A stretch of 64,000 nt of DNA from an uncultured Candidatus Rokubacteria bacterium (lineage in GTDB: Bacteria; Methylomirabilota; Methylomirabilia; Rokubacteriales; DASRDR01). Where the stretch lies: NCBI GenBank assembly GCA_963805625.1, contig CAWDVE010000010.1:32001-96000 (forward strand), given 5' to 3'. The position numbers were made by a program, and so were the translations under genes. Below the pieces are notes generated by a model, which saw nothing but the letters and a program-made list of their open reading frames with translations, ran no database searches and was not told where the DNA came from. Shown one piece after another: positions 566 to 60,184 of this stretch (positions are counted from its first letter, which is position 1; every line of letters starts with the position of its first letter).

Positions 566-796
566 CCGATAAACCTACCTGTAAATATCCTTTTATAAAT
601 AACCGGTATATGAAACCGACCTTGCCCTGATGTGAAGGTATCGACTGTCTCCCATTTGGGCAGCCCGCATTGTTCCTGATATCGGCATCTTTGTATCAGT
701 ATCTGTCTGCCATAAGTTACGATCCCGTGAATTTGCGGCAGGGTTTTTATGTATTCATTATTTTTCAACCCATTACGGAAAAATTGATAAATTTAT

Positions 797-1245
797 GGCT
801 CCGTGGAAATCCTACACTATATTTTCTCAACACTCTTTTATGGGCTGTGGCACGTAATGCTTCCGCCCCCGCCGCTGTGGCACCCCCCTAGAGCAATTAC
901 TCCAGAGAAGGTAATACAACATCATCGCAAAGCGCAGGGGCGGTTCGGGGGGACAGGCACTGTCCCCTCCGTAAATAGGTACTTTGCAATTCGTTGAAAA
1001 CTTAGAGTTTCCCATCGAAAGATTGCCAGCCAGATGGCCAGGTTTAAATACTTCGATCGGGAAGTGCCAATCCCGCAATTGCGATGACCTGCGCCGCCCC
1101 CGAAGGGACGCCCCCGCGGCGCTTCAATGTGCCTGAAAACTCCACCCTGGCCTCTCAAGAGCCTGTTACGGATGCCAGTCGTACCTTCACACTTTTTCAT
1201 GGTTGGGTGAGACCCATTCCCGTTCATGCCCGTTTCTACAGAGCC
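797..1245 (-). mobile_element. MITE-like composite element, copy 1 (449 bp)
   Basis: Inverted termini GGCTCCGTGGAAAT (797) and GTTTCTACAGAGCC (ends 1245). Internal modules are shared, reverse-complemented, with 23646-24074 and 53757-54284. Contains hairpin A at 1091-1122. Confidence 0.75.
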
Positions 1246-8887: not shown

Positions 8888-10214
8888 TCAGTATGTTGCA
8901 AGATACCTGTCAAGTTCCCAGGGATGGACTGCAAGCCGGAAGGAATCGGTTTCCATCTGGGCAATACTTGAAAGATTCGTTACAACATGTTCACCGAGCG
9001 TCTTACAGAGCACTTCATCCTTGACGAGCATTGCATTGGATTCCATAAGGCTGCCCGGCAGCATATCGATATGGAGTCGCTTCCGGGCTTTCTCATCGAG
9101 ATGATAGATATTGGTATTCGTGCTTTCAGGTGGCATAACCTTGTTCCTGATACCATCCAGTCCGGCTGCAAGCATACAGGCAAAGGTAAGATACGGGTTG
9201 CACATCGGGTCCGGGCTGCGGAACTCTGCCCGGGTGCTGTTACCCCTTGCTGCCGGAACGCGAACCAGCGCGGAACGGTTGGCTGCACTCCAGGAGATGT
9301 AACAGGGGGCTTCATAACCGGGGACAAGGCGCTTGTAGGAGTTGATTGTCGGGTTTGCAACACGGGTAATCGCCTTTGCGTGTTTCAGGATACCGCCGAT
9401 ATAGTACATTGCGGTATCGGAGAGTCTGGTTTTCTCCATTGGGATCAAAGAATGCATTCTTCCCGTTTCTGGCCAGCGATCCATGGGTGTGCATACCGCT
9501 GCCATTGATGCCTGCAATCGGCTTTGCCATAAAGCTCGCGTGCAAACCGTACTGCAGCGCGATTGACTTGGTTGCAAATTTGAAGGTAATAACCCGATCT
9601 GCAGTAATGAGTGCATCACCATATTTAAAGTCAATTTCATGCTGGCTGTCAGCGACTTCATGATGGGATGCTTCTATCTCGAATCCCATATCACTGAGTG
9701 CAAGGACAACATCGCGTCGGACATCCTCTGCAGAATCGGTAGGGGCGAGATCAAAATACCCCCCGCGATCTTCAAATTCTGTTGTCGGAACTCCCTCATA
9801 CATTTTAAAGAGGAAAAACTCGAGTTCAGGACCGGTATTAAACGTGAATCCCATCTTTGCTGCTTCAGCAATGGTTTTTCGCAGGATATAACGAGGATCT
9901 CCGTCAAACGGTTTGTTTCCATAGGTCTGGACGTCACAAATAAACCGGGCAACCTTCCCCTCCTGGGGTCTCCAGGGAAGGACCGCATACGTTGACGGGT
10001 CTGGTTTGAGCATCATGTCGGATTCTTCAATGCGGGCAAATCCTTCTATGGATGAGCCATCAAACCAGATACCCTCAGTAAGGGCTTTTTCTGCCTGAAT
10101 AACCGGAATCGAGACGTTTTTCGGCTGACCCTGGATGTCAGTAAACTGAAGTCGGATAAATTTTACCTTGTCCGCTTCAATTTTTTTGAGGAGTTTTGTT
10201 ACATCTGCTGACAT
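8888..10214 (-). CDS. glnA: Glutamine synthetase type I, split by a +1 frameshift near 9425 (probable sequencing artefact)
   Basis: [33 protein letters not shown] and [13 protein letters not shown] motifs; removing one base in AGTCT (9423-9427) joins the two ORFs as ENQLSDTA. Confidence 0.93.
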
Positions 10215-10217
10215 ATT

Positions 10218-10248
10218 GGAAGACATGTTCCACCCATTTGTATTTATA
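10218..10248 (-). promoter_or_regulatory. NrpR-type operator GGAA-N6-TTCC (10218-10231) plus TATA box (10241-10248) of glnA
   Basis: GGAAGACATGTTCC; minus-strand TATAAATA just upstream. Confidence 0.85.
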
Positions 10249-14670: not shown

Positions 14671-14709
14671 TTTTTCAGGCCGGGAAATTCATTGGGATAC
14701 TGGTTTTAA

Positions 14710-15258
14710 GGATCCCCCGACTCATGACATCTTCGAGGCATGGCGGATCAAGGAATGTTTTCAGATTTTATGTTGTTGATCCGCTGCGGGAGCACTCCGT
14801 CGGAGACGGCGGGGTCATCATAATCTGATCAGGATTACCGATTCTCATCTGGATTTTCATGAAGGTCCGAACACTTCTTTCATACAGGTTTCCCAAAAAA
14901 TTATAGTATTTTACGAGAGTCACCCGCCTCAGGGCCTCTCCGAGGCACGGCGGGTCAGGAGGTTTATTTCGGATTTTTGGTTATTGAACCGCCGCGGGGG
15001 CGTCCCTTCGGGGGCGGCGGGGTCATCATAAGTTTGATTCACAGATACCGATCCCCGTTCATCTCTGAATATTACGATTTTCATGGTTCAGGTTCGAACA
15101 CTTCTTTCATACAGGTTTCCCATAAAAATTATCAGTATTTTACGAGAGTCACCCGCCTCAGGGCCTCTCCGAGGCACGGCAGGTCAGGAGGTTTATTTCG
15201 GATTTTTGGTTATTGAACCGCCCCTGGAGCGTCCCGTCAGGGGCACCAGTCGTTCATC
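14710..15258 (+). repeat. Tandem triplet of the B-spacer-A hairpin unit (period about 210-229 bp)
   Basis: B at about 14714 (degenerate), 14922 and 15151; A at 14781 (degenerate), 14989 and 15218 (degenerate). Flanks such as GAACACTTCTTTCATACAGGTTTCCCA are also duplicated. Confidence 0.9.
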
Positions 15259-19779: not shown

Positions 19780-19996
19780 TGGGGGATTTCTGTATTTCAG
19801 AGAGGGTCGCTCAGGAAGAGGCAGTTTGCCATCACCATTTTTAATGGTAAGACGATTTTCGATTAACCGTTCCTGGATTATCTTTTTACCAGTTCTTTGA
19901 AGAGCTGTAATACTGAATGGGGTGCCTAGGGGCAGGGGCACAGGAATTCATTGTTTCCTGATATCATAGAGAAGTGGATTCTCTGATATCCTGCTT

Positions 19997-20298
19997 ATGA
20001 TGAACGCCGCCGCCCCCGAAGGGACGCCCCCGCGGCGGATCCAGTTACAAAGTTGGTAAATTTCGACAACTCTAAAAACCTCTGACCCGCCGTGCCTCGG
20101 AGAGGCCCTGAGGCGGGTGATCCTCATAAATTTTTTATGAAATTCACCGTTCAGGAATCGTTTTTTTAAACAGAGGATGATGAACACCGTTGTGTCCGGG
20201 GGACGTTTCCGCTGCTGATCATCCAGAAAAATCGGTCAATTTCTGATATATACCAGAACCGCCATGCCTTCGGAAAGACCTGTGGCGGGGACCCTCAT
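19997..20298 (-). repeat. Two B-spacer-A hairpin units, one intact and one degenerate
   Basis: A(rc) 20007-20038 and B(rc) 20085-20118; degenerate A about 20178-20220 and B about 20259-20292. Confidence 0.88.
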
Positions 20299-23508: not shown

Positions 23509-23645
23509 GGTGAAGTGTATGCATAACAGGAAAGAAAAATGTATGCAGCGTGCATATCGGGTGAATGGATGAGTATGGCCATACTAACCACGACAGCCCT
23601 GGTTTTCCGGTTTGACCTTCTCCAGTGGATCATCCCTTAATTGGC

Positions 23646-24074
23646 AGCTCTGTTGAAACGGGCATGAACGGGAAAATTGAACTAAACAGATGTTCGTAAT
23701 GGATTGTTTATTCTTCAAAATTATTTGCGATGAACCCCGCCGCCCCCGACGGGGCGCCCCCGCGGCGGATCAGTATCTGTAAGCATATTTGCAAAACACC
23801 GCACTGCCCCGCCGTGCCTCGAAGAGGCCCTGAGGCGGGGGACCCTCCTAAAATAGGATGGTTTAATGATTTTCATCGCAATTTGTTGAAATCTTAGGGT
23901 TTCTGAGGGGAACAGTGCCTGTCCCCCGACCGCCCCTGCGGTTTACGATTGTGTTGTATTACCTTCTCGGGAATTATCGCTCGACAGGGGATGTCACAGC
24001 GGCGAGTGTGGAGGCATTACGTGCCGTTGTCCTGAAGAGCGTTGAGAAAAATATTGTGAGGATTTAACAGGACC
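23646..24074 (+). mobile_element. MITE-like composite element, copy 2, with the internal hairpin cassette inverted
   Basis: Left end AGCTCTGTTGAAACGGGCATGAAC and degenerate right end ATTTAACAGGACC; A(rc) 23737-23768, B(rc) 23807-23840, module C about 23905-23972. Confidence 0.75.
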
Positions 24075-24368
24075 GAAATGGCTTAAAAAAGGGAAAGATA
24101 CTATGGGAATTATCGAAAAAATCCGGAAAACCGGGAAATCGTAGTCAGGGTATCCTGTGCGTGATTTTTTCATCATAGGTGAAAAAAAGGAATTCTGAAT
24201 AACAGTTATTTTTTAATATGCACGCAATTCTGATGATCGGCCGATAAAAATCGCCCTAAAATAAAATCAATTATAAATTTACGCCTCATTTGTCAAACCG
24301 GGTGAAATTTACAGGTATTTGAATTAATATGATATCAAAATTTATATAGAACCACAATACAATAGATA

Positions 24369-30953: not shown

Positions 30954-31410
30954 GGGGGCGGAGGCATCACGTGCCATAGCCCGAAAAAAGAGCGTTAAGA
31001 AAAATATTTTGAAAATTTCCCATCAAAATAGAATTAAACAGATGTGAGTAATGGATTGTTTATTTCTCATAATTATTTGTGATGAACCCCGCCGCGGGGG
31101 CGTCCCTCCGGGGGCGACGGCGATTATCCTTATGCATAGAAGAGTTGCAAATCTCATAAGATGATAGCAGTTTAAAGTATATTTCGGCATGAACTCCTTA
31201 GTTTTCAACAAATTGGAAATACCTATCTCAAAGGAACCCTGCGCCCCCGAAGGGCGCCCCCGCGGCGGATAGGTCTCGTAAGTATATTTGCAACACCGCA
31301 CTCCCCGCCGTGCCTCGGAGAGGCCCTGAGGCGGGGCCTCAGAAAATTATAGGGTTTAATGATTTTCATGTTCAGTGTGAACTCACGTTCATGCCCGTTT
31401 CAACAGAGGC
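30954..31410. mobile_element. Rearranged MITE-like composite element, copy 4
   Basis: End module 30954-31020, cassette flank, A(+) 31089-31120, A(rc) 31238-31268, B(rc) 31303-31336, terminus GTTCATGCCCGTTTCAACAGAGGC ending at 31410. Confidence 0.7.
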
Positions 31411-31442
31411 AATGTAACGAAACCGATGAAAAAAGTTAATGA

Positions 31443-34400
31443 TCAGCCCGCTTTCTTATAACATATTTTTGCCTCTTCATGTTTACCTATGGTATCGAGT
31501 ACTCCCCCGATATCCTCCCAGACTTCTTTGCGCCCGGGATCGATTTCCAGCGCATGTTTAAAAGACGTGAGAGCTTCCTGATACTTTTCCTGTTCCTGTA
31601 ATGCACGTCCCCGGTAGATCCATGCATCTACAAAATCAGGCTGGATCGTTAACATCGTGTTGAACGATTCCACAGCCTCCATATACCGTCCGAGAGCAAT
31701 AAGTGCACTTCCTTTGGTGAAATAGGCGATGGAAAAGGAGGGGTCGGCAGTTATTGCATGTTCATATGATTCGATTGCAGCCTCGCTCTGGAATTGAGCG
31801 GCAAGTGCCATCCCATGACGTGTCCAGGCAACGGCATTCTCAGGATCAAGCTCAAGACATCGTTCATATGCGGAAAGAGCTTCCGGATATTTCCCAAGAT
31901 CGTAGAGCACATTCCCCTTCCCCATCCATGCCTCGGCAGAATTTTCATCCTGTTCCAGAGCTTTATCAAAGGTCTCCAGTGCATCTCTCGACATTCCAAG
32001 TTCGGCAAGGGAAGTCGCTTTATGGGACAGCGTCACTGCGCTATGACCGATTTCCAGAGAACAATCATATGATTGTATTGCTTCCCTGTGCTGGTCAAGT
32101 GCAGCATAAGCCATACCCTCAAAGTAATACAGGTCAGCAGTCCTGTAGTTGTTCTCAATGGCATGCTCGAATGCCCGTATCGCATCATCAAAATTGCCCA
32201 TCTCAAAATAAGCTCTCCCTTTCCAGAAAAAAGCCTGGTTACAGGCAGGGTTCATCTCGAGAGCCCGTTCAAATGCAGAGATTGCCGCGTCAGGATTTCC
32301 GAGAATGAAAAGAGCCCTTCCCTTCTCATAGACAGCATTTGCATACCCGGGACTGAAAGCGAGCGCAAGATCAAATGATGCAATTGCCTCTTCATTCTTA
32401 CCGCTGTGCATGAGTGCCCGCCCGCGTTCATAGAGAGCTTCCTCATTTTCCGGATTAATGCCAAGCGCAGCATCAAAGGCAACAATCGATGCATCATAGT
32501 CACCAGTACGGGCAAGAGCAATTCCCTTGTGGTGGTATGCCTCGGTATACCGGTCATTCAATTCAAGTGCATGATTAAATGCGGTTATCGCGTCGTCATA
32601 CCGTTCATGCCTGAGGTACGTGACACCCTGATAATAGAAGGCTTCCGGATAATCCTTCCGGAGGGAAAGTGCCCTGTCAAGTGCTTCAAGCGCTTCATCG
32701 TATCTGCCCAGGTGAATCAATGCAATACCACGGTACAGGTATGGGGCAGCTGATGGTGCCTCTTTGGAAATTGCATGATCATAACAGTCGAGAGCCATAT
32801 CGTATCTGCCGAGGTTTGCTTCAGCAATACCTTTACTGAGCCATGCATCCGTAAATGTGCTTTTTTCACCGATTGCCCGGTCGAATGCACCTATTGCCTC
32901 ATGATACATCAAAAGACTCATGAGAGCCTGTCCCTTCTGATAGAACGCCTGGACGCACTTCGGGCTGCGGGCCAGGGCAGCTTCGAAGCTTTTAATTGCC
33001 TCATGATACCTGCCGAGACGGGATAATGAAATCCCGGAATAATAGTATGCCCGGGGGTCTTTTGTATCGATGGCCAGTGCCTTGTTAAAGCAGGTTACGG
33101 CATCCAGATCCTTCCCGAGTGCTGAGAGGGCGAATCCTTTCCCGGTCCAGGCAAATGCAGCGGTGGGACGGAGACGTAATGCCTGATCAAATGAGGTTAT
33201 CGCTTCTTCGAACCGGGTGAGCCGGGTCAGGGCAATTCCCTTGTGGTAGAGTGCTTCGATATGTGCCGGCTCGGCTGCAAGTGCATTTTCGAAGGATACT
33301 ACTGCCTCGCTGTCCCTTCCCAGTTCAAAGAGTGCCCGCCCCTTGTAATACAATGCTGAAACGAAATCCGGGCGTATTTCCAGTGCGTTGCTGAATGAAT
33401 CATCTGCATCTTCGTAACGGGTCAATGCGAAAAGTGCAGTCCCTTTCAGGTACCATGCGTCAGCACTGGTCGGGTCAGTCGCGAGGGATTTCTCATATGC
33501 TTCAATCGCTTCATGATATCTGCCCAGTTCTGCCATTGCCATACCACGGTGCAGCAATGCTTCAACAGATTCGGGTTGTACCTGCAATACCCTGTCAAAT
33601 GCATCGATTGCATCTTTCTGCCGTCCGGTCGCAACAAGGGACAACCCTTTATTATAAAAGGCCTGTGCATTACCTGCATCAAGATCGATGTTTTTGTTGA
33701 AGGCGATAATGGCATCTTCATGGCGGCCCAGATTTGCAAGGGCACACCCCTTATGGAGATAGACATCAGCATAATTTCTCTCAATGCTGAGTGCCTTGTC
33801 AAAGGCTTTTACCGCATCACGGTACATGCCAAGAGAAGCGTGTGACTTTCCTTTGTTGTACCATGCCTCAGCAAAGGAAATATCGGTCTCGAGTGCCCGA
33901 TCAAACGATTTGACAGCTTCTTCAAACCTGCCGATATGAGCAAGTGCAGCACCCTTATAGAAAAGTGTATACGTGTGTTTCTGGTTGAAATTGAGTGCCT
34001 GGTCATAGACGGTAATTGCATCACCGGTCCGGCCGAGAATGTCCAGTGAACGCGCCTTGCTGTAATACGCCTCAAAATAATCCGGTTTCAGGGCGATGGC
34101 ATTTTCAAATGCTGAAATTGCCAGGTCGTGGCTTTCGAGTTTTGCATAAACAACACCCTGCTCAAACCAGATCTGTGCATCGTCACGGGTTATGGTAAGT
34201 AGTCTTCCGAATACTTCTGCAGATTCAGCATATCGTCCCAGTTCGGCAAACGATGATGCGTAAAAGAAGAGGGCATCCGTATTACCTGCTTCGACAGCGA
34301 GTGTTTTTCCCAGTGCACTGAGTGCTTCTTCAAATTTACCGAGGTGGAACAACGCAATACCCTTCTCACATAAAGCACTCGTAGTATCCGGTGAGAGCTT

Positions 34401-37400
34401 AATCACCCGGTCAAAGGAATCGATCGCCTCCTCAAATTTACCCAGGCTTGTAAAAACTCTGCCCCGCTCAAGATAAGCCCTGTGATTATCAGGACGGTAT
34501 TTTATACTGTTATCGAACGCATCGATTGCATCTTCGGGACGGTCCAGATACGTAAGTACCACACCTTTCTCATACCAGATCTCCCCGTCAGTATTCCGGA
34601 GTCCGAGTGCTGCGTCAAATGCATGTCCTGCCTCATCATATCTGCCGAGATTTGCCAGGGATATTCCCCGTAAATAGCTCGGTTCATACAGGTCCGGAAG
34701 GACAGATGAGGCATGTGCGAAAATTTCCTGAGCTTCTTCGTGCCTTCCCAATAGTGGCAAGGATCCGACCCTTCTCGGTCAGGAGCTGCCCGTTTTCAGG
34801 AGCCAGAGTCAGGGCAAGATCAAAAATATGCAGCGCATCGTTATAACGTGCGAGCCGCGAAAGTGCGCATCCTTCTGCGAAGAGCAGTGTGATATTCCGC
34901 GGGTCGTTCTGACGTGCTTTTTCAAATGCGGAAACGGCATCTTCGTCTTTACCCAGATGTTCAAAAGCGACGCCTTTATGGAACCATGCATCGGAATGGT
35001 CTCCAATCCGTAAAAGTACCTCGTTGAATGCCTGGATCGCATCTTCGTACTTCGTGAGATTTTCGAGTGAAAGCCCCTTATTGAAGTAGGCTTCGGCAAA
35101 ATCAGGATCAAGAACAAGAGATCGTGAAAATGAAGATTCCGCTTCCTCATACCTGCCGAGCATCGCATATGCAAGTCCCTGTTCGAAATGCCCGTCCCTG
35201 CTCTGATCATCAATTGCAAGCGCTTGTGAGAATGCAATGACCGCCTCTCCATGTTGCTTCAGGTTTGAAAGCGTACGTGCCTTGTAATAATGTGCATCGA
35301 ATGCATTGTTATCGAGAGCGATCGCCCGGTCAAATGCTTTGGCTGCTTCTTCAAACCTCATGAGATTGAAGAGGATGATGCCCTTGTTAAACCAGGTCTC
35401 GTAGCTGGCGGCATCAAGTTCGAGAGCCGCATCGAATGCCAGGAGTGCCTCTTCGGGTTGGTTCAGGTTTTTGAGGGAGAGACCCTTGTGATAATATGCT
35501 GATGACAGGGACGGGTCAACCGAGATCAGCTGGTCGAATGAAGCGACAGCATCCTGGTCTTTTGAGAGCCGGGCAAACGCGAGCCCCTTGTCATAGAAGG
35601 CACTGACAAACCTGGGATCAATAGTCGTAGCCTGTTCAAAAGCTTCGACAGCCTGGAGATCCCTGCCGAGTTTTGTCAGGGCGATACCCTTGTCATACCA
35701 GGCATTTGCATACCTGGGGTTAATGGCAAGGACCCGGTCATACGATGAGACGGCTTCTTCGTGCCTGCCGAGTTCTGAGAGTGCGATTGCCCGGTCGTAC
35801 CACCCGTAGGCTGAACCGGGTTTGATGTCAAGGGCACGGGTGAGAGCATCCAGCGCCGGTTCAAACCTGCTGAGCGAGAGCAGCGTACTTCCTTTTCTCA
35901 GCCACGCCGGTGCACACGCCGCATCGTGTGCAAGAACCTGGTCAAAGCAGGCAATTGCATCTTCCGGGTTCTGGAGTTCGATGTATGTCTTTCCCTTCCG
36001 GTACCATGCTGTTGTGTTGTCCGGTGCAAGGGCAGTTGTCCTGTCAAATGCTTCGAGTGCCTCTTCAAACCGTCCCAGTTCGAAAAGCACCCTCCCCTTG
36101 AGCAGCCAGACGTCAGCGACAGTGCTTTCAAGGCTGAGTGAGGATTCGAGCGCCCCGAGCGCCTCCTCAAACCTGTGGAGAGATGCCAGGATGACTACCC
36201 TTGTTGAACCAGGTCTCGTAGCTGGCGGTATCAAGTTCGAGAGCTGCATCGAATGCCTGGAGTGCCTCTTTGGGACGGTTCAGGTTTTTGAGGGAGAGAC
36301 CCTTGTGATAATATATCGGTGCGTGTGACGGTTCAACAGCGATTGCCCGGTCAAATGATGCAATGGCATCCCGGTCTTTCGAGAGCCGGGCAAATGCGAG
36401 CCCCTTGTCATAGAATGCATGGACAAACCTGGGATCAATAGTCGTAGCCTGTTCAAAAGCTTCGACAGCCTGGAGATCCCTGCCGAGTTTTGTCAGGGCA
36501 ATACCCTTGTCATACCAGGCATTTGCATATCTGGGGTTTAAGGCAAGGACCCTGTCATACGATGAGACAGCTTCTTCGTGCCTGCCGAGTTCTGAGAGTG
36601 CGATTGCCCGGTCGTACCACCCGTAGGCTGAACCGGGTTTGATGTCCAGGGCACGGGTAAGGGCATCCAGCGCCGGTTCAAACCTGCTGAGCGAGAGCAG
36701 CGTACTTCCTTTTCTCAGCCACGCCGGTGCACACGCCGCATCGTGTGCAAGAACCTGGTCAAAGCAGGCAATTGCGTCTTCCGGGTTCTGGAGTTCGATG
36801 TATGTCCTTCCCTTCCGGTACCATGCTGTTGTGTTGTCCGGTGCAAGGGCAGTTGTCCTGTCAAATGCTTCGAGTGCCTCTTCAAACCGTCCCAGTTCGA
36901 AAAGCACCCTCCCCTTGAGCAGCCAGACGTCTGCGACAGCGCTTTCAAGACTGAGTGAGGATTCGAGTGCCCCGAGTGCCTCCTCAAACCTGTGGAGAGA
37001 TGCCAGGATGATGCCCTTGTTGAACCAGGTCTCGTAGCTGGCGGTATCAAGTTCGAGAGCCGCATCGAATGCCAGGAGTGCCTCTTCGGGGCGGTTCAGG
37101 TTTTTGAGAGAGATTCCCTTGTGATAATATGCTGGTGCCAGAGACGGTTCAACGGCGATTGCCCGGTCAAATGATGCAATGGCATCCTGGTCTTTTGAGA
37201 GCCGTGCATAAGCGAGCCCCTTGTCATAGAATGCTTTGGCAAACTCCTCATCAAGTGTCGTAGCCTGTTCAAAAGCTTCGACAGCCTGGAGATCCTTGCC
37301 GAGTTTTGTCAGGGCGACACCCTTGTCATACCAGGCATTTGCATATCCGGGGTTAATGGCAAGCACCCTGTCATAGGATGAGACAGCCTCTTCATGCCTG

Positions 37401-40400
37401 CCAAGTTCTGAGAGTGCGATTGCCCGGTTGTACCACCCGAAGGCCGAACCGGGTTCAATATCCAGGGCACGGGTGAGGGCATCCAGCGCCGGTTCAGACC
37501 TGCTGAGCGAGAGCAGTGCACTCCCTTTTCCCAGCCACGCCGGTGCACACGCCGCATCGTGTGCAAGAACCTGGTCAAAGCAGGCAATTGCGTCTTCCGG
37601 GTTCTGGAGTTCGATGTATGTCTTTCCCTTCCGGTACCATGCTGTTGTGTTGTCCGGTGCAAGGGCAGTTGTCCTGTCAAATGCTTCGAGTGCCTCTTCA
37701 AACCGTCCCAGTTCGAAAAGCACCCTCCCCTTGAGCAGCCAGACGTCAGCGACAGTGCTTTCAAGGCTGAGTGAGGATTCGAGTGCCCCGAGCGCCTCCT
37801 CAAACCTGTGGAGAGATGCCAGGATGATGCCCTTGTTAAACCAGGTCTCGTAGCTGCCGGCATCAAGTTCGAGAGCCGCATCGAATGCCAGGAGTGCCTC
37901 ATCGGGCCGGTCAAGGTTTTTAAGGGAGAGACCCTTGTGATAATATATCGGTGCCTGTGACGGTTCAACAGCGATTGCCCGGTCAAATGATGCAATGGCA
38001 TCCGGTCTCTTGAGAGCCGTGCAAACGCGAGCCCCTTGTCATAAAAGGCACTGGACAAACTTGGGATCAATAGTCGTCGCCTGTTCAAAAGCTTCGACAG
38101 CCTGGAGATCCCTGCCGAGTTTTGTCAGGGCGATACCCTTGTCATACCAGGCATTTGCATACCTGGGATTAATGGCAAGGACCCTGTCATAGGATGAGAC
38201 GGCCTCTTCGTGCCTGCCGAGTTCTGAGAGTGCGATTGCCCGGTCGTACCATCCGTAAGCTGAACCGGGTTTGATGATCCAGGGCACGGGTGAGGGCATC
38301 CAGCGCCGGTTCAAACCTGCTGAGCGAGAGCAGCGTACTTCCTTTTCTCAGCCACGCCGGTGCACACGCCGCATCGTGTGCAAGAACCTGGTCAAAGCAG
38401 GCAATTGCATCTTCCGGGTTCTGGAGTTCGATGTATGTCTTTCCCTTCCGGTACCATGCTGTTGTGTTGTCCGGTGCAAGGGCGGTTGTCCTGTCAAATG
38501 CTTCGAGTGCCTCTTCAAACCGTCCCAGTTCGAAAAGCACCCTCCCCTTGAGCAGCCAGACGTCAGCGACAGTGCTTTCAAGGCTGAGTGAGGATTCGAG
38601 TGCCCCGAGTGCCTCGTCAAACCGAAGAAGTTTCACCAGAACAGATGCCTCGCTGATAGAGCGCAGGAGCATTATCCGGCTCCTTTTCCAGCACGGTATC
38701 GAATGCATCGAGAGCTTTTTCATTTTTTCCAAGGCTGACAAACGACAGACCAGACTGGAATATCGCATCTGTCAGGGAACTGTCATAGATAAAAGCCTGG
38801 CTGAATGACCGGATTGCCTTTTCGTATTTTGCTGTGGCTTTCAGCACGAGTCCCTTATAATAATGTGCATAAGCGTGCTCCGGAACATTTTCAAGAGTAT
38901 AGTCAAAGGCTTTGATGGCGTCTTTGTACCTGCCTGTGCGGTAAAGTGCAAGACCTTTATTATAAGCTGCGTCGGTAAAGGAAGGGTCCAGGGCAAGTGT
39001 TTTTTCATAAGCACTGATGGCGTCATCGTCATACCCGAGTGAAGACAGTGCAAGTCCCCGGCCATATGCTGCATCAGCGCTGCCGGGTTTCAATTCGAGT
39101 GTTTTATCAAATGCCAGAATGGCATCGTTGAAATACTTTAGCTTATAAAGAACCTGCCCCCTCGCCAACCAGATATCAGCATCGTCCGGAGTAAGTTCGA
39201 TTGAACGGTTCAGGGAGGCAAGAGCATCTTTGTCGCGTCCGGCTGCCATGAGGGCGTTCCCGCGGTGGTAGTTGAGATAACCGGTTTCAGGTCCGATGGC
39301 AAGTGCCAGATCGAATGCTGTAACCGACTCCTCGTATCGCCCGATGGTTTCGAGTGCGACTCCTTTTTTGTATGCAGCGTCCTGCATACCCGGGCTGAGT
39401 TCAAGGGTACGATCAAACGCAGGCACCGATTCTTTAAACCGTTTTAGTATACAAAGGACATCTGCTTTATTGTACCATGCGACTGCACATGAATCGTCCA
39501 GAGACGACGCCATGCCGAACGCTTCAAGGGCATCCTCATACAGTGACATCTGCTTATAACTGATCCCGCGGTAATACCATGCAGTGGCATGCTGTTTGTC
39601 AAGAACAATCACCTTATCAAATGCTGAGACTGCCTCTTCCCACCGTTTGAGGTGAAGCAGGGCTTTACCCCGGTGAATAAGGGCAAAAATGTTCTGGGGT
39701 TCACGCCTTAACGATTTCCCGAAAGATTCAACTGCTTCCTTGAATCGGAACAGCTTATAGAGTGAATACCCCTTGCATGAAAGGAGACCTGAATCCGTGG
39801 TGTCCTGTTCCAGTGCCCTGTCCAGTGCAATTACTGCGTCTTCGTACCGGGCAAGTTTTACTAAAGCAACACCCCTTCTCCGGTGTGCCCGGGTATTTTC
39901 CGGATCAAGGAGGAGAGTTGCGTCGAACTCTCTGATTGCTTCCTCATACCGGGCAATCTTTTCAAGAATCTCACCCTTGACGAGATGGGAAACCACATCA
40001 GTTGTATCAAGTTCGAGTGCGCGATCGAATGAAGCGATTGCATCCTCATACCTGTCGAGCCGGGAGAGCACCATTCCCTTTTCAGCATAGATACGGGAGT
40101 TATCCAGACCCATCTCAATACATGCATTGAATGCTTCCAGGGCAGATTCCGGTTGGCCGAGATGGGAATATGAAAGCCCCTTCTCAAAAAGGATCTCACC
40201 TGAATCAGGTTTGAGAACAAGAACGGCATCGAATGCTTCTATTGCCCGGTCGTATTTTTTAAGGATGAAAAAAGATCTTCCCATCTCTTTCCAGGCTTCT
40301 ATCCGGGATGGGTTGAGAGCCACGGAACGGGTGAAAGCCTCAATGGCATCAGAATACTGATGCAAACGAACGAGAGCGGCACCTTTATAATAAAATACCC

Positions 40401-43400
40401 GTTCGCACGAGGGGTCCAGCTGGTTAATCCGGGTATATACGGTAACTGCTTCTTCAGGCAAATCCTGGCGGTCTGTTGCCCGGGCAAGACCGTACAATGC
40501 TGTCAGATCATCTGGATTTGTGATGAGTACATTCCTGAATGCTTCAGTCGCCTCCGGATCGCGTCCGAGAGCATAAAGCGCTCTCCCCTTCTGCAGATAC
40601 GCATCTGCAAAATCCGGCATCAGACGGTTTGCCTGTTCGAAGGCTGCAGCGGCTTCTGATACCTTCTGAGCTCTGGCAAGTGCGATTCCCTTATAGTAAT
40701 ATGCTTCACCAAATTCCGGTTCGAGAGCCAGTGCATGATCAAATGCTGCAACTGCGTCATCAAAATTGTCAAGGCTGATGTGGGCCCTGCCTTTATAGAA
40801 CCAGGTATGGGGATTGTCCGGGTCAATTTCCAGTGAGGTTGCATAAGCAAAGAGAGCGTCCTGAAATTGTTCGAGAGCAAAAAGACAGAATCCTTTTATC
40901 AGCCATGCATTGGCGATCCGTGGTTCAGCCTCGAGTGCACGGGAAAGGGCCTTTACAGCGTCGCTGAATTCACCAAGCTCGGCAAGAGCCAGTCCCTTGT
41001 GGTACATCGCATCGGTAAAACCGGGATTAATCTCAAGGGCGCGTGTAAATGCCATGGCCGCTTCATCATGATGTCCCAATACCGCGTGGGATAAACCATA
41101 CCGGTAAAATATATCTGCCCTTCCGGGATCGATTGTACTTGCCGCCTTAAAGGCAGCAGCTGCCTGTTCATGTTCATCCAGATGTGCAAGCGCAATTCCC
41201 TTCTGATAGAGTGCCTCAGGATTATCGGGGGTCATTTCAAGGGCACTATTGAAAGCGGATAGTGCTTCGTCATACATACCCACATTTGAAAGGGCTATAC
41301 CTTTATTGAAGAAGGCTGGTGCGAAATGGGGAATCAGTTCCAGTACGCGATCAAACGAGGTGACCGCTTCAGGATACCTGCCAAGGTGAATCAATGCCAG
41401 ACCCCGGTCATAATACACCTGTGCATTACCCGGATCGAGGCTCAATAGCCTGCCCAAAGGCAGTAACGGCAGGCTCAAAGCGTTCCAGGTCAGCAAGGGC
41501 TTTTCCTTTCTGGTAAAGTGCTTCGATGAAGTCCGGTTTGAGTTCTATTGCCTTTTCGCAGGCAGCAAGCGATTCTTCATTACGACCCAGGTCGTGAAGT
41601 GCGACTCCTTTTCGCAGTGCGGCTTCCGCTGAATCCGGATCCAGTTCAAGCGACCGGTCAAATGCATCTATCGCCTCCTGGTAGCAGCCCATGCCATACA
41701 GGGCCAGTCCTTTCTGGAAAAATCCCGGGGCATATGACGGAAGGAGGGAGAGTGCCCTGTCAAAAGAGACAACCGCTTCGCTGAACCTGTCCAGTTTTGC
41801 CAGGGCAACGCCCCGGTTGTAGTGCGCATCTGCGAGTTGGGGATTTGTTTCAAGAGCGTGATCAAATTCCTGAATTGCCTCGTCCGTCCGGGATAATTCC
41901 AGGAGGGCAAAACCCTTATGGAAATGAGCATCAGCAAAACCCGGTTCAATCTCAAGTACCCTGTCATAGGCATAAATTGCCTCGGAGGTGTTTCCGGAAT
42001 CGAAAAGTGCTCTTCCTTTCTGGTAGTATGCATGGTAATTTTTGGGGTTATCAGTAATAATCTTGTTAAAGTCCCTGACAGCATCCCTGAATTTTTTAAG
42101 ATGAGACAGGGCGATGCCTTTTCGCATCCGTGCTTCTGCATAATTCGGTTTTAGCTGAAGCGTCTTTTCGAAAGCAAAGATTGCCTCATTGTAACGGTTC
42201 TGACCCATGTAGGCCTTGCCCTTGTGATAGAAAGCCAGTGCATTATCAGGATCATAAATAAGTGCTTTATCAAAAGCCTCCAGTGCCTCTTCGAATCTTC
42301 CAAGCCGGGAAAGTGCCAGACCCCGGTTATAGTGCCCCTGTGCATTCCCCGTATCCTTCTCGAGATTCTTATCGAAGGATTCAATGGCTTCAGCGTATTT
42401 TTCCAGCTTAAAAAGTGCAAATCCGAGATGATAATAGACTTCAGTGAATGAAGGATCAATTTCCAGAGCGCGGGTAAATGCAGAAATTGCATCGGAATAT
42501 TTTCCGCTCTGGTTTAAGGATTTTCCCTTGTTATACCATGCAGGTGCAAAGGAAGGCAGGATATCGATAGTCTTTTCGAAAGCTTCGATGGCATCACGGT
42601 GATCTCCAAGTCTGGCTAATGCAAGTCCCTTATGATACAGGGCTTCATAATTCCCGGGATCAATTTCAAGGAGTATCTCATATGCATGGATCGATTCGTC
42701 GAATCTGTTCACTTTTTCCAGCGCGAGCCCCTTGTAGTGAAATGCTTCAATGCATCTCTGGTCCAGGGCTATAGCATTATCAAACGCATCAATAGCATCC
42801 TGGTATCTCCCAATGTCAAAGAGAGCCTTCCCGTTTCTGACCCATCCGTCGACCTGACCGGGATCAATTTTCAGGGATTTGGTGAATGCGACGATTGCAT
42901 CTTCCGTTCGCCCGAGATCATTCAGGGCATCACCTTTCTTCATCCAGATGTCGCGAAGCGCAGGGTTAATATCAAGGGCACGGGAGTAAGCAAAAACAGC
43001 ATCCTGGATTTTATGGAGATCGTAGAGAGCATTGCCTTTTTTTACCCACGCCTCCGCGAAATTCGCATTAATCTCCAGGGCTTTTGAATATGCGAGGACA
43101 GCATCCTGCTTTCTCTGAAGAGAAAAGAGGGCATCTCCCTTCTGCATCCAGATCTCGATTATCGTCGGATTGAGCGAGAGAATCCTGTCGTGTGTCTCGA
43201 TAGCTTCGGGATACCGCCCAAGCTTAAAGAGTGATTTTGCACGGCAGATGAGTGCTTCGATAAGCGACGGGTTTGCTGATAAGCTCCTGTCCAGTAAAGG
43301 AATAGCTTCTTCGTAACGGGACAGTTCAGCGTTGGCGATACCCTGGTACATGTAACTTTCAGTGAGTGTTGGATCGATTTCGGTCGCTTTTTTGTTTGCA

Positions 43401-46400
43401 GCGATAGCATCCTCATACCGCTTTAATTCGAGATACGAAAGTCCCAGGTAATAGTAATTTGAGGCGTCGGACGCATCCAGGGACAGGGCCGCCTCAAAGG
43501 ATTTGACGGCATCGCTATAGCGTTCACGCTGGACAAGGGCGACTCCTTTGAAATGATGCGTTGATGGATTTGAAGGATCAAGAAGAAGTGCTTTGTCGAA
43601 TGCTTTTATCGCATCGCTGTATCGTTCTTTACCGGTAAACGCGACACCGAGGAAATAGAACCCCAATGCATTTTCAGGCTCGATTTCCAGTGACTTCTCA
43701 AATGTCCTGATGGCATCATCGTATCTCTCGCGCTGGGTAAGAGCAATCCCTTTCTGGTACAGGATTTGTGGATTATTGGGAGATATTTCCAGTGCCAGGT
43801 CGTAAGATACGATAGCTTCCAGGGGTTTCCCAAGGTGAATAAGGGCATTTCCCTTTTCAAAAAATGCACGGGCGCAACGGCGGTTGATCTCAATAGTTTT
43901 ATCAAAAGCATGAACGGCTTCTTCAAATCTTTCAAGAGCCGACAGCCCGATACCAAGGTAACACCATGACCAGACATCGCGTGGCTGTTCTTCAACCGAG
44001 CGGGTAAGAATCAGCACCGCTTCTTCAAAATGGTGAATTTTGATAAGTTCGATACTTTTTCGTACTGTTGCTTCAGTAAGTCCTGGATCCAGCACGAGGG
44101 CCTGATTAAAAGCCTCAATTGCCTCGTCATGTAAACCAAGATTTGCCAGGGCAATACCCTTGTTCAGCCATAATCCGGGACGCGAGGGATCATGTTCGAG
44201 TGCTTCCCTGAAAGTATCCAGAGCTTCCTGATAGTGTAAAAGACGTAAATGGGCAATCCCTTTCCCGGATAATGCCTCGTGATTATAGGGGGAAATTTCA
44301 AGGACGCGATTAAAAGCGTCGATTGCATCGGAGTATTGCCTGAGCTTCAGGAGCGTTTCTCCCCGGTAAAACAGCGCAGGAATATAGAGCGGATTGATTC
44401 CAATTGCCCTGTCGAAAACATTCAGGGCCTGAGAATAATTTTTCTGGTGAACCAGCGCAAGTCCCATGGCATAATGAACCTCAATAAAATCCGGTTGAAG
44501 TTCAAGTGCGATGTCAAAGGACCTGATTGCATCATCATACCGTTTCAGCTCGGAAAGAGAAATTCCCTTATGGTAGCTGATCATCGGATCATCAGGGTTT
44601 AGTTCAAGTGCCCTGTCAAAGGCTGCAATTGCATCCTTGTGCCTGCCCAGCTGGGACAAGGCAATCCCTTTCCTGCGATAAGCGGGGGTGCAACCATTAT
44701 TGATCTCTATGGCTTTATCGAATGACTGGAGCGCTTTTTCGGGCTGCCCTCGTGCCGCAAGGGCAACACCCTGATAACACCAGAGCAGGGCATCCCCGGC
44801 GCATTCCCCGGGAACGCTGCTGAATACTCCGAGAGCCTCCTCATGTTTTCCAAGTTTGACGAGTGCAATTCCTTTTCTGACCAGCGCATCTGTTCTTTTT
44901 GGATCCAGCAGAATCGCCTGATTAAATGCCTCGACTGCTGCTTCATACTGTTTCATCTGCTGGTGCACAATCCCGGAATAATAATAGGAAGGTGCATGGG
45001 CAGGATCGAGTGCAACAGCCCGATCGAATTCTGTAAGGGCCTCCTCAAAGTGATCCAGCTCGATAAGGGCAATACCCTTAAAATGGTGGACAAGGGAATA
45101 TGAGGGATCGATGGCAAGGGAATGATCGAATGCGGTTACCGCTTCAAAATACCGCTCGGTTCCGGCATATGCCAGTCCAAGAAAATAATATCCCGAAGCA
45201 TTTTCCGGTTCATGTGCAAGGGCATGTTCGAATGCATCGATTGCATCGTCAAAACGTTCCTGACGAAAGAGAGCGACACCTTTCAGATAGATAATTTTCG
45301 GATTATCAGGTTCGATCTCCAGTGCACGGTCATAGAGATCTGCCGCTTCTGACTGGTCACCCAGATAGGAGAAGGCGTTTGCTTTCTCATAGAGTGCACG
45401 TGTGCACCGCGGGTTGATCTCCAGAGTTTTGTCAAACGAACGAATGGCTTCTTCAAATCGTTCGACAGATGAAAGGGCGATACCTTTATAGTACCATGCC
45501 TGGTCATTGCCCGGCTGTTCTTCAAGAGCACGGTTAAGAATTGAGATTGCCTCATCATACCGGCAGAGAGTAATCAGGACAATTCCTTTACGGACTGCTG
45601 CCTCCGCATGCCGGGGATTTAATATAAGTACCTTCTCGAATGACGCGATGGCTTCATCTGCCATTCCCAGTCTGCTGAGGGCAATTCCTTTCTGGAGCCA
45701 GCCTTCGGTAAGCGCCGGGTTTTGCTCGATTGCCTCGTTAAATGCCACCAGTGCTTCCTGATATCGTGAAAGATGGAAAAAAGCCAGACCTTTATTAAAC
45801 CATGCACCGGTATTCTGCGGTACCTGTCCGAGTACGCTGTCGAAATCCAGTATCGATTCAGCATAATGTCCGGTCTGCAGATAAGCGGTACCGCGCTGAT
45901 AGAGAACGAGGGTATTTGCCGGATCAATTTCAAGGGCCTGATCGTAGGCATATACGGCATCTTCATATCTCCCCAGCTGAATGAGTGAAAGTCCCAGGTT
46001 GTAATAGGCATTGATGTAATTCGGGTTGATGGCAATGGCGTGTTCAAATGCATCAATTGCCATTTCGGACTTCCCGAGCTTTGCCAGGGCAAGACCTTTA
46101 TCATAGAATGCCTGGGCATACGAAGGTTTGATCCCGATACTTTTATTGTATGATTCAATTGCATCAGGATATTTACCGAGTTTGGCGAGCAGGAGTCCTT
46201 TCTGGTGAAATGCCTGTGCATTTTCCGGGTTCTGTTTGATTGTCCTGTCAAATTCCTGAATGGCTTCATCGACATTTCCCAGTTTTGCGAGTGCAAAACC
46301 CTTATGGAAATATGCATCCCCATACATCGGATTGATCTTCAGGGCCCTGTCGTACGCAGAAACTGCTTCCGTATACCTGCCAAGGCTGGCGTACGCAATT

Positions 46401-47664
46401 CCGCCCTGGAATGCTGCCTGTGAACATCCGGGATCCAGACGAAGCGCCTGTTCGAACGATTCAATCGCTTCTTTATGCCTGCCCAGCTTCGTCAGGGCAA
46501 TGCCCCGGAAATAAAATGAGGCAGGATGCTCCCCTTTTTTCAAGCAGAGCCTGGTCAAATGATGCCAGCGCATCCTCGTACCGGCTCAGCCTGATGCAGG
46601 CAACTCCTTTCAGGTACAACGCATCGGAATTTTCCGGCTCAAATGAGAGAGTACTGTCAAAATCCAGCATCGCATCCCGGTACTTATGCAGATGGGAAAA
46701 CGCAATGCCACGATTGTAATATGCGGGAGTGTTTCCCGGGCTGAGCTCTATGACTTTATTAAACGCAGAGACTGCATCGGTATATTTTTGCATCGCGTTG
46801 AATGCAAGTCCTTTATGAAGCCATGCATCAGCCACAAGCGGGTTCATCTCAAGGGACCGGTCGAGTGCTGCTACAGCTTCGTCATATCTTCCGATTCTGA
46901 AAAGAGAAATTCCTTTTATTGCCCAGATATCAGCATGCCCAGGTTCCTGCCTGAGAAATGTATCGGCCGATTCGACAGCTTCTTCAAAACGTTCCTGCTT
47001 CGCGTAAATAAAACTGCGGTAATACCAGACCCATATATCAGTGGAATCTATTTCAAATGCTTTATTGAATGCAATCAGCGCGTCATCATATTTCCCGATG
47101 TCGTAGAGTGAGATTCCCTTATTATAGAATGCCTTTGCGTAACCGGGTACGATTTCGATGGCCTTATCGTATGCCAGAATTGCTTCAGAGTGCATGTTGA
47201 GATCGGCAAGTGCAATTCCCTTGTTATAATAGACTTTCGCATGCCGGGGATCGACGGTCAGTGCGTGATCATATGCACCGATTGCTTCTTTGTAGCGCCC
47301 CAGTCTCATAAAAAGCAATGCCTTTAAGGATCCATGCTTCGGCGTTGTCCCATTTGATGGTCAGTAAACGATCACATGCTTCCAGGACATCCTCGTTTCT
47401 TCCCATCTGGGCGAGGGTCGCTGCTTTATTATACCAGGCATTGGTATCAATGGGATCGATAGCAACTGCATGATCATACGCATCGATGGCATCCTCGTAT
47501 CTGCCGAGATCATACAGAGCAATGCCTTTAAAATAATAGGCTTTTGAAAAATCGGGAAAGAGGGCAAGCGCACGATCAAACATGACAATGGCTTCCTGAT
47601 ACCTGCCAAGGTCATAGAGTTCGATGCCCTGTCGCAACAATGCCTCAGCATCACTCTTATTCAT
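31443..47664 (-). CDS. Giant TPR-repeat protein (about 5,400 aa if joined), broken by roughly 9-10 single-base frameshifts
   Basis: Consecutive overlapping ORFs (47269-47664, 46473-47318, 41426-46573, 38617-41496, 38187-38768, 38039-38314, 36167-37723, 34684-36249, 31443-34760) are all uninterrupted 34-aa TPRs that stay in register across the junctions. Confidence 0.85.
35372..38623 (-). repeat. About 4 near-identical tandem copies of an 816-bp unit (272 aa, 8 TPRs)
   Basis: GCATCGTGTGCAAGAACCTGG recurs at about 35921, 36738, 37554 and 38371. Confidence 0.92.
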
Positions 47665-49731: not shown

Positions 49732-49879
49732 TTTGCTATGGTTTTCGGGTGTCCGGGTTTTTTCTGAGCATGTTATCTGAAGTTCTGGAAAGACATCACA
49801 AACAGGGAAATTTGCATCTGACAATGAAAATCGCAGTAGTGGAAATCATGAGGGACTGGTTTCTTTATACTTTATTCAG

Positions 49880-50245
49880 GAGCAACGCCGCCGCCCCCGA
49901 AGGGACGCCCCCGCGGCGGATCAATAACAAAAAATTCTCACGAAACCAACTGACCGCCGATGCTCCTGGAGAGGCCATGAAGCGGATTGTCACAAATGGT
50001 AACGATTTTCTGGAAAAGACATGATATATCTCGCATCCGGATTTCGAGAATTGTGTATTCAGATATAGATCAGAAATTGGCAGCTCTCCATACCATAAAA
50101 GGAAACATACTGCCCCGCCGATTTGACCTGCGGCGGATCGGCAACAAAAAAATTCTCCCTGAACCTGCTGACCCGCCGTGCCTCGGAGAGGCCCTGAGGC
50201 GGGTGACATTCATAAATGTCGATGATTTTCTGGAAAAGGACATGA
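49880..50245 (-). repeat. Tandem pair (about 220 bp period) of the B-spacer-A unit
   Basis: Intact A(rc) about 49887-49919 with degenerate B, then degenerate A with intact B(rc) 50171-50204; shared flank GATTTTCTGGAAAAG..CATGAT. Confidence 0.88.
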
Positions 50246-50379
50246 TCAAGGAGCTCGCATAGGAAGCTCGAGTCATAGTATTACGGGATAATCGGAAATT
50301 TTTCAGATTTCCATACTCTAAAAAGATAAACGCCTATCGCAGGGTTCCCGGTCGAATAATCAAACAGGATATCCCAGGA

Positions 50380-53756: not shown

Positions 53757-54284
53757 GTCTCTGTTGAAACGAGCATGAACTGGAGTTCGCACCCATACTG
53801 TGAAAATCATTAAACCATGTAATTTCAGGAGGATCCCCCGCCTCAGGGCCTCTCCGAGGCACGGCGGGGCAGTGCGGTGTTTGCAAATCATGTTTACAGA
53901 CACTGATCCGCCGCGGGGGCGCCCCGTCGGGGGCGGCGGGGTTCATCGCAAATAATTAAGGGATATAGACATTCCACAACGCACATCAGTTTAATTCAAT
54001 TTAATATGGAAATGTCCCGGTATTTCCATTCTGTGTGCCTGTGGCCGCAGGCATCGTGTCTATTTTCATGGGAAACCATAAGCAGTCCAACAAATTGCGA
54101 ATCACCTGGTGTTGGACGGGAAGTGCCTGTCCCCCCGAACCGCTCCTGTGCTTTGTGATGGTGTTGTATTACCTTCTCTGGAATTATTGCTCCAGAGGGG
54201 GATACAACAGCGGGGGTGGAGGCATTACGCAGCGTGGCCAAAAAAGAGTATTGAGAAAAATATTATGAGGATTTCGACAGAGCC
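53757..54284 (+). mobile_element. MITE-like composite element, copy 3 (528 bp)
   Basis: Termini GTCTCTGTTGAAAC and ATTTCGACAGAGCC; B 53836-53869, A 53908-53939, module C about 54117-54182. Confidence 0.78.
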
Positions 54285-59670: not shown

Positions 59671-59769
59671 TCCCATCAATCTGGATGATTATTGGGATGG
59701 TTCGTGGTGATCAACGAAAAGAAACAAGGGATTTGTCTGGTATCAAGGCTTTTTCACGACAATATAGTT

Positions 59770-60089: not shown

Positions 60090-60184
60090 CTTTTGGTATC
60101 GACATCTGACCGTTCCCCGAGATATCTGAATATTGTGATTTTTATTGTGGTTATTGCCGGCAGGGATCAAATTTGAGCCGGCTC

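What the first reader, a model, noticed from the sequence alone, without database searches (positions are those of the whole stretch)
23673..23903. The approximately 200-bp hairpin cassette is flipped inside the MITE
Seen: 23673-23875 is the reverse complement of 53801-54002, including its non-hairpin flanks (TGAAAATCATTAAACC... and ...GCAAATAATT...CATC.GTTTA.TTCAATT), while the outer modules of the two elements have the same orientation. A short TIR-like module, GCAATTYGTTGAAA (about 986, 23878, rc at about 31203 and 54088), is also flipped relative to module C in copy 2. Inference: the element is built from independently invertible or mobile modules, through either nested insertion in both orientations or site-specific inversion.
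Basis: seen in the sequence. Interest (0 to 1): 0.7.

Follow-up and report, generated by a model that had tools for sequence, protein, structure and literature searches.

The report
Nested jumping genes, one flipped copy
The flip is in the sequence, but only this copy has it, likely from a one-off copying error, and the surrounding repeat is a nest of small mobile elements in a methane-making archaeon, where an inner element lands in either end of the outer one, likely steered by an RNA-guided (IS110) recombinase.

Summary
In detail: 23674-23875 is the reverse complement of 53801-54002 (88.7% over 203 nt), flanks included. Copy 1 is the odd copy, not copy 2.

The element is a nest of three units in Methanoregula-like DNA:
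- A 225-bp host MITE (13-bp TIRs, 8-bp TSD) of a ~995-bp DDE IS.
- A ~235-bp MITE (Q) with the ends of an IS110. It sits at the AAA core inside either host TIR. That IS110's upstream region holds bridge-RNA-like guides that covary with target and donor.
- In copy 2, a 63-bp MITE of a second IS110, inserted in Q's subterminal repeat.

At this purH-grpE site, relatives show three states: empty, host only, and host followed by Q's left end. Most module-order variation among copies reflects which TIR Q entered, not inversion.

The flagged flip is different. H and T are each inverted in place, with small deletions and short microhomologies. This form occurs in 1 of 77 Q-bearing loci mapped, and a clean repeat-to-repeat flip in 0 of 228 genomes. 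I put template switching at ~0.6, consensus artefact ~0.18 (chimeric, noisy contig) and recombinase half-match ~0.17. It is not a switch.

The parts
23638..23645 (+). Left 8-bp target-site duplication of copy 1 (two substitutions against the right copy; identical to it in relatives)
   Evidence: L110 has the same 8-mer on both sides
23646..23658 (+). Left 13-bp TIR of the host MITE; ends in the AAA core at which Q is inserted
23659..23673 (+). Remnant left end of Q (5-nt extension plus subterminal repeat, as in the IS110 of L066); the ~19-nt hairpin that follows in other copies is deleted at junction 1
23674..23876 (-). Interior of Q (H: two GC-rich hairpins plus flanks, bounded by Q's subterminal repeats), inverted in place: the flagged cassette
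23877..23903 (-). Module T (host positions 10-37, starting at the AAA core), inverted in place
   Evidence: (27 of 28 nt match the reverse of L110 1220-1247)
23904..24062 (+). Body (module C) of the host MITE, ancestral orientation
24063..24074 (+). Degenerate right TIR of the host MITE
24075..24082 (+). Right 8-bp target-site duplication
53757..53769 (+). Copy 2: left host TIR
53770..54075 (+). Copy 2: complete Q in its standard arrangement (H at 53801-54002), ending in the duplicated core
54003..54065 (-). Copy 2: 63-bp MITE with the ends of a second IS110 family (L097/L103 type), inserted at a TTT core in Q's right subterminal repeat
   Evidence: a similar insert lies in G001's orthologue (L230) of the 792-1244 copy but not in the window's
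54076..54284 (+). Copy 2: host interior (T then C) and right TIR; the interior is reversed at the same site in G002
792..1244 (-). Further composite copy (Q with a second interior type in the host's left TIR); G002 has an extra Q in the other TIR
30954..31412 (-). Scrambled composite copy; its pieces read as same-strand reordering of a copy with Q at both ends, joined at short shared words
14704..15258 (+). Three tandem H-bearing units joined at TTTC cores (related Q-like subfamily); further H copies at 19994-20132, 49878-50246, 59763-60148 and 62523-62671

Best explanation
The repeat is a nest of separate elements, a 225-bp host MITE with a ~235-bp insert (Q) at the AAA core of either terminal repeat, likely placed there by an RNA-guided IS110 recombinase, and the flip in copy 1 is likely a single, non-programmed template-switch event that happened after Q had inserted. 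Shown: (1) the host has the 13-bp TIR and 8-bp TSD of a ~995-bp PF01609 IS; (2) Q has the same two ends as an IS110 found in the same position in such a TIR; (3) that IS110's upstream region carries 8-nt words matching the TIR target and its own right end, and these words change with the flanks across the family; (4) orthologous sites exist empty, with host only, and with host plus a Q end; (5) copy 1 reads: Q left end, H inverted, T inverted, host body. Inferred: the upstream region is a bridge RNA that mobilises Q in trans. Both TIRs carry the target, so Q appears on either side of the host, on both sides, or in tandem. In copy 1 the polymerase would have left Q's left end, copied H backwards on the other strand, jumped to the far end of T, copied T backwards and rejoined the host body, dropping about 19, 4 and 8 nt of the ancestral sequence.
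For: Nest. Ends are shared with the IS110 in L066, and an intact 419-aa relative has the same ends (L092). Q's right end meets the inner face of a host TIR in 44 of 56 junctions by a loose pattern (20 left, 24 right, 2 tandem, 10 other). At C10 4300, Q is in the left TIR in G000 and in the right TIR in G002 while the host keeps its orientation. Host orientation is unchanged at 8 of 9 shared loci. Series at this site: empty in L111 and L112, host only in L110, X1 and X5, Q left end in X2 and X4. Guide covariation: donor 27 of 30 variable positions (shuffle mean 10.9, p 2e-5); one target arm 36 of 75 (mean 22.0, p 1.6e-4); the other arm 46 of 65 (mean 28.7, p 2e-5). Flip. It is rare: 1 of 77 Q-bearing loci. 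Both inverted pieces are bounded by inverted repeats, a perfect 9-10-bp pair around H and a 5-of-6 pair around T. The junctions show 2-nt, 1-nt and 5-of-6-nt homology against L110 and standard Q (read by eye). Junction 2 creates a perfect 10-bp inverted repeat with 23725-23734. An in-place inversion with other breakpoints occurs in another genome's copy (L058). No in-place inversions were found in the unique sequence aligned with G002. Spacer inversion by inter-strand switching is described in PMC5453318 (passages).
Against: No read or contig supports the three copy-1 junctions: depth is 0 beyond 23674 in 4 of 4 runs. These are short contigs of other strains, so the test is weak. The contig is chimeric (50% GC archaeal DNA joined to 70% GC DNA at ~143 kb). 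Its consensus has about 11 single-base insertions in coding ranges against G002, several splitting genes that are whole in G002. Three switches are needed, more than the two of the four-point model. Junction 3 ends exactly on the recombinase core. The first automatic test of one target arm had a register error and gave 31 of 60, p 0.067; in the rerun one flank (L106) was set by hand. The shuffles ignore relatedness. No left donor guide could be identified. No IS110 match was found in G002, so the helper in this lineage is not shown. The host interior is reversed at 1 of 9 shared loci, which insertion side alone does not explain.
Confidence: 0.6

Rival explanations
1. Copy 1's arrangement is an assembly or consensus artefact, made from few long reads or from reads of several repeat copies.
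For: The contig joins archaeal and high-GC bacterial DNA. About 11 single-base insertions fall in coding ranges against G002. The left TSD differs at two positions from its form in relatives. No contig of 4 runs crosses junction 1. The exact left-flank 22-mer gave 0 hits in the metagenome collection.
Against: Both flanks and the host body are collinear with L110. No small inversions appear in unique sequence. The junctions fall at inverted repeats and create a perfect 10-bp inverted repeat. A similar in-place inversion exists in another assembly (L058). H is at most ~94% identical to any other copy on the fragment, though most copies of that genome are not held.
Confidence: 0.18
2. The IS110 recombinase made the inversions by half-match recombination between Q's right-hand junction and a cryptic core in the host, with repair trimming the joins. 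The reversed host at the copy-2 site would be the same reaction between Q's junction and the far TIR.
For: Junction 3 is exactly what a crossover between the core after Q and the 5-of-6 look-alike at host 45-50 would give. The host interior is reversed at one shared site with the same right boundary. Half-match activity is reported for IS621 (10.64898/2026.08.31.748434, part 1 of 6 and passages). Inversion by opposed sites is reported in PMC11208160 (passages).
Against: Junctions 1 and 2 are not at cores and need extra deletions. 8 of 9 shared loci keep host orientation. At the copy-2 site the Q interiors also differ between genomes, so independent insertion or a TIR-to-TIR flip fits as well.
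Confidence: 0.17
3. H is a programmed invertible cassette (shufflon- or phase-variation-like) that flips between Q's subterminal repeats.
For: H is bounded by perfect 9-10-bp inverted repeats. Units at 14704-15258 carry H the other way round relative to their Q-like ends.
Against: The precise-flip junction was found in 0 of 228 family genomes, while the standard junction occurs 26 times in the 60 loci L141-L200. Copy 1's flip is imprecise. No recombinase was found among the 28 window ORFs scanned.
Confidence: 0.03
4. H is its own mobile element (a REP- or IS200/605-type palindromic element) that inserted in either orientation.
For: Two conserved GC-rich hairpins with a variable spacer recur across genomes.
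Against: The inverted piece includes Q's flanks and repeats, with no duplication at its edges. Y1 transposases were found in only 4 of 201 family genomes and 0 of 5 element-rich genomes. No H lies near the 6 Y1 loci. The H copies I read lie within Q-like or decayed Q-like ends.
Confidence: 0.02

Closest known systems
IS1111/IS110 bridge-RNA (seekRNA) recombinases (PMC11208160, PMC11187229; passages read)
   Same: DEDD plus Transposase_20 protein; subterminal inverted repeats at unequal distances from the two ends; non-coding region with words matching target and donor; insertion at a short core; cargo between ends can be moved in trans.
   Different: Archaeal. Subterminal repeats come with an upstream non-coding region, which PMC11187229 lists as an exception. 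The abundant form is a short non-autonomous element without the guide region. The core is AAA rather than CT. Nothing was tested biochemically.
[quoted passage not shown]
   Same: An IS1111-type element that inserts in the terminal repeat of another mobile element.
   Different: Here the target is the 13-bp TIR of a small DDE IS and its MITE, the insert is itself a MITE, and a second IS110 family targets the first one's subterminal repeat.
ssr9 module of ISPpu9 (PMC12288879; abstract read)
   Same: A non-autonomous module that uses an IS110 transposase and sits in repeats, alone or in arrays.
   Different: Q's cargo is two conserved hairpins of unknown origin with no sign of being an RNA gene, and the host repeat is a TIR, not a REP.
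Short-range template switching (four-point model, PMC5453318; passages read)
   Same: In-place inversion with small deletions and a newly perfect inverted repeat.
   Different: Three switches and ~230 bp are needed here; the paper models two switches and short pieces in primates.
IS5-family MITEs, ISH1-like group (label and its 8-bp duplication rule recalled, from no call)
   Same: Short TIRs, 8-bp TSD, ~1-kb PF01609 parent whose reading frame runs into the right TIR.
   Different: Subgroup membership was not tested against reference elements.

Membership tests
IS110/IS1111 (parent of Q) | DEDD_Tnp_IS110 and Transposase_20 domains between the ends shared with Q | tested here: met
   L066 ORFs hit PF01548 (E 2e-26) and PF02371 (E 2e-25), split by a frameshift; intact 419-aa relative at 78-83% identity in L092
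IS110/IS1111 (parent of Q) | Subterminal inverted repeats, asymmetric to the ends | tested here: met
   5 nt between core and left repeat, 3 nt between right repeat and core; this fits 7/3 only if two core bases are counted on the left
IS110/IS1111 (parent of Q) | Non-coding region with target-matching guides that covary with insertion sites | tested here: met
   36 of 75 and 46 of 65 positions, p 1.6e-4 and 2e-5; relatedness not corrected; one flank set by hand
IS110/IS1111 (parent of Q) | Donor-matching guides on both arms | tested here: inconclusive
   Right-end guide 27 of 30; no left-end guide identified
IS110/IS1111 (parent of Q) | Bridge-RNA-like secondary structure | tested here: inconclusive
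   Two stems between the guide pairs; 7 of 9 predicted pairs have compensatory changes. The full fold was not recovered, and Rfam had no match to the region in 3 loci
IS1111 group | Long non-coding region downstream of the transposase | tested here: not met
   It lies upstream; PMC11187229 notes such exceptions
IS110/IS1111 (parent of Q) | Circular intermediate, RNA expression, RNA-dependent insertion | not testable with these tools
   Needs experiment; no RNA runs or raw reads were returned
MITE of a DDE IS (host) | TIRs shared with an autonomous transposase element, fixed-length TSD | tested here: met
   ~995-bp PF01609 elements with the same 13-bp TIR; 9 of 21 with both ends called had 7-8 of 8 TSD matches (several left ends were miscalled); 20 of 70 MITE left ends likewise
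MITE of a DDE IS (host) | Empty orthologous site | tested here: met
   L111 and L112 empty; L110 filled, with a perfect duplication
IS5 family, ISH1 group | Transposase groups with reference ISH1 elements | not tested
   Label recalled; PF13737 not found in 5 genomes; literature search unhelpful
Shufflon / phase-variable invertible segment | Recurrent precise inversion between fixed sites | tested here: not met
   0 of 228 genomes; 1 imprecise case in 77 loci
REP/PATE (HUH Y1-associated) | Linked or co-resident Y1 transposase | tested here: not met
   0 of 5 and 4 of 201 genomes; no H near the 6 Y1 loci; MAG incompleteness limits this

The most novel reading that the evidence does not exclude
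A family of archaeal IS110 bridge recombinases drives a three-tier nest: MITEs aimed at a DDE element's terminal repeats, and a second IS110 reprogrammed against the first one's subterminal repeat. Through half-match crossovers at the same cores it also inverts host modules in place, making these repeats a natural record of RNA-guided inversion.
Probability: 0.2. Interest if true: 0.72.

Novelty: new variant of a known kind. Interest (0 to 1): 0.48.

Why it matters
The flip itself is probably an accident. The element around it is a natural, high-copy test set for bridge recombinases in archaea. It offers dozens of filled, empty and doubly filled sites per genome, a minimal non-autonomous substrate (ends only), guides that track their targets, and one IS110 whose predicted guide matches another IS110's end. 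It makes two open points directly testable: how little of the ends an IS1111-like element needs, and whether half-match reactions rearrange genomes in nature. It also warns that the genome record is chimeric: the first ~143 kb of C10 is methanogen DNA in a 70% GC genome.

Tried and rejected
- One mosaic MITE whose T+C block inverts: rejected as the general rule, because at C10 4300 Q changes side while the host stays put.
- L070 and L075 first looked like further copies of the copy-1 form. They are whole Q insertions at an internal TIR-like site.
- H as a REP/PATE element: no Y1 link.
- H as a structured RNA: conserved but with almost no covariation (3 of 23 pairs, term -0.49), and no Rfam hit in the window except a tRNA.
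- PF13737 as host transposase: 0 of 5 genomes.
- Relatives of G000 were not used, because the window lies in a foreign fragment.
- The exact-flank metagenome scan found nothing; the degenerate one gave one locus.
- The first read-laying was swamped by repeat copies, and no listed piece bridged the element.
- All 24 runs listed were contigs, none raw reads, so misassembly could not be tested directly.
- One target-arm test had a register error and was redone.
- Three look-ups of earlier findings returned nothing.
- Paper searches showed no description of this family in their listings; the library lacks most subscription papers and ISfinder was not available. No supplements were read; those of the IS110 papers may list these archaeal elements.

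Full report
Observation. Self-BLAST pairs 23674-23875 with 54002-53801 at 88.7% over 203 nt. The inverted alignment scores 290, against 22 on the same strand and at most 24 in 200 shuffles, and the non-hairpin flanks align. The outer modules are co-oriented in both copies.

Origin of the DNA. The window's genes are methanogen genes (frhB-like, methanogenesis marker 8, archaeal CCA enzyme). G000 is 67-73% GC per contig, while the first ~143 kb of C10 is about 50%, with an abrupt change near 143.3 kb. The element's end pattern matched 69 loci in the genome collection, all titled Methanoregula, Methanoregulaceae or Methanomicrobiales. GrpE is 96-97% identical in G001 and G002. The window therefore lies in a foreign fragment of a chimeric contig, and I compared it with G001 and G002.

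The host. The element has 13-bp TIRs and an 8-bp TSD: 20 of 70 left ends had a right TIR followed by a 7-8 of 8 duplication. L030 holds a PF01609 transposase remnant between such TIRs. Relatives are ~995-bp elements with the same TIR; 9 of 21 with both ends called had 7-8 of 8 TSD matches, several left ends being miscalled. The label IS5/ISH1-like is recalled, not tested. At the purH-grpE site L111 and L112 are empty, while L110 holds a 225-bp host-only MITE with a perfect duplication and T in copy 2's orientation. Contigs of runs X1 and X5 continue from 23659 into that same host sequence, and those of X2 and X4 carry Q's left end before they stop.

The insert Q. The ~235-bp block after the left TIR has the same two ends as an IS110 found at the same core of a TIR in L066. 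An intact 419-aa relative has similar ends (L092). I mapped 79 loci (60 fetched from G001/G002, 5 others, 14 on C10), 77 of them with Q. Q joins the host at the core of the left TIR, of the right TIR, of both, at an internal TIR-like site (L070, L075), or in tandem. By a loose pattern, 44 of 56 right-end junctions meet the inner face of a TIR. Of 11 C10 loci compared with relatives, 9 had the host in both, and its orientation was the same at 8. At C10 4300 Q sits in the left TIR in G000 and in the right TIR in G002. At 97520 that TIR is empty in both relatives, and at the 792-1244 locus G002 has an extra Q. So most differences in module order come from the side of insertion.

Guides. I aligned the upstream regions of 19 IS110s: L066 and 18 of the 30 loci, leaving out duplicates, truncated and distant ones. 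Two stems with compensatory changes in 7 of 9 pairs separate 8-nt words. The donor word matches each element's own right end at 27 of 30 variable positions (10 distinct pairs, shuffle mean 10.9, p 2e-5). One target word matches the right flank at 36 of 75 (15 pairs, mean 22.0, p 1.6e-4). The other matches the left flank at 46 of 65 (13 pairs, mean 28.7, p 2e-5, one flank set by hand). The first automatic run of that test was out of register and gave 31 of 60, p 0.067. Relatedness is not corrected and no left donor word was found. In L066 and L091 the target words spell the host TIR. In L097 they spell Q's own subterminal repeat, and that IS110 sits there. The extra 63 bp in copy 2 (54003-54065) have that family's ends and lie at that site. 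That these regions act as bridge RNAs is inferred from PMC11208160 and PMC11187229 (passages). No IS110 match was found in G002 itself.

The flip. Against L110 and standard Q, copy 1 reads: left TIR, Q 1-15, H inverted, host 10-37 inverted, host 45-225. It is the only one of the 77 Q-bearing loci with H inverted inside Q. The junction expected from a clean flip between Q's repeats was found in 0 of 228 family genomes, while the standard junction occurs 26 times in L141-L200. Both inverted pieces are bounded by inverted repeats. The joins show 2-nt, 1-nt and 5-of-6-nt homology (read by eye), and join 2 completes a perfect 10-bp inverted repeat with 23725-23734. L058 has an in-place inversion with other breakpoints, one at a hairpin tip. 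The copy at 30954-31412 is scrambled at short shared words. This pattern fits replication template switching (PMC5453318, passages), though three switches are needed.

Evidence against this reading. The contig is chimeric and noisy: about 11 single-base insertions fall in coding ranges, and a 5,408-codon frame in G002 is broken into pieces here. No contig of four runs crossed junction 1, and no raw reads were on offer. On the other side, the unique sequence is collinear with G002, and the only reversed matches near the diagonal lie in two element loci. Junction 3 ends exactly at the core, and at the copy-2 site the host interior is reversed in G002 with the same right boundary. Both fit a half-match crossover as reported for IS621 (10.64898/2026.08.31.748434, part 1 of 6 and passages), but the second also fits independent insertion or a TIR-to-TIR flip.

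What H is remains open. Its two hairpins are conserved across 34 of 47 copies aligned, around a variable spacer, with little covariation. Y1 transposases are rare in the family (4 of 201 genomes) and not near H.

Verdict. The feature is real in the assembly, copy 1 is the derived state, and it is not a programmed switch. I am confident of the nest (about 0.9) and less so of the cause of the flip: template switch about 0.6, artefact 0.18, recombinase 0.17. Known parallels exist: IS4321/IS5075 in Tn21 repeats (title in a reference list) and the ssr9 module (abstract). My searches (PMC13343696 passages) showed no account of this archaeal three-tier family. It is a new variant of a known kind, interest 0.48.

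Noticed in passing
G000 C10 1-~143,300 (includes the whole window): Methanoregula-like 50% GC DNA is fused to 70% GC bacterial-type DNA in one contig; likely a chimeric assembly. C25 80-95 kb is also low in GC (47-50%).
   Followed up: partly
window 31443-46573: TPR-repeat ORFs that form one 5,408-codon open frame in G002 C58; here broken by single-base insertions. glnA (8888-10226) and 54806-57692 are also split, which points to consensus errors.
   Followed up: partly
window 53757-54284 vs L227: Host MITE interior is reversed between G000 and G002 at the same right boundary; the only such case among 9 shared loci.
   Followed up: partly
L097, L086, L103; window 54003-54065; L230: A second IS110 family sits in the subterminal repeat of Q; in L097 the predicted target word matches it. 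A ~63-bp MITE of that family occurs in copy 2 and in G001.
   Followed up: partly
L109:490-762, L081, L086, L089: IS110 left ends preceded by further partial IS110 ends or a duplicated guide region, suggesting insertion into their own or related ends.
   Followed up: no
window 14704-15258, 49878-50246, 59763-60148: Tandem H-bearing units; at 14704-15258 they are joined at TTTC cores and H is oriented opposite to standard Q relative to the ends.
   Followed up: partly
H core, e.g. window 53837-53940: Two ~32-bp GC-rich hairpin motifs are far more conserved than the spacer between them across Methanoregula copies; origin and constraint unexplained.
   Followed up: partly
L066:4474-4536: Weak Rfam match to the fluoride riboswitch (23 bits, below the gathering score of 34).
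   Followed up: no
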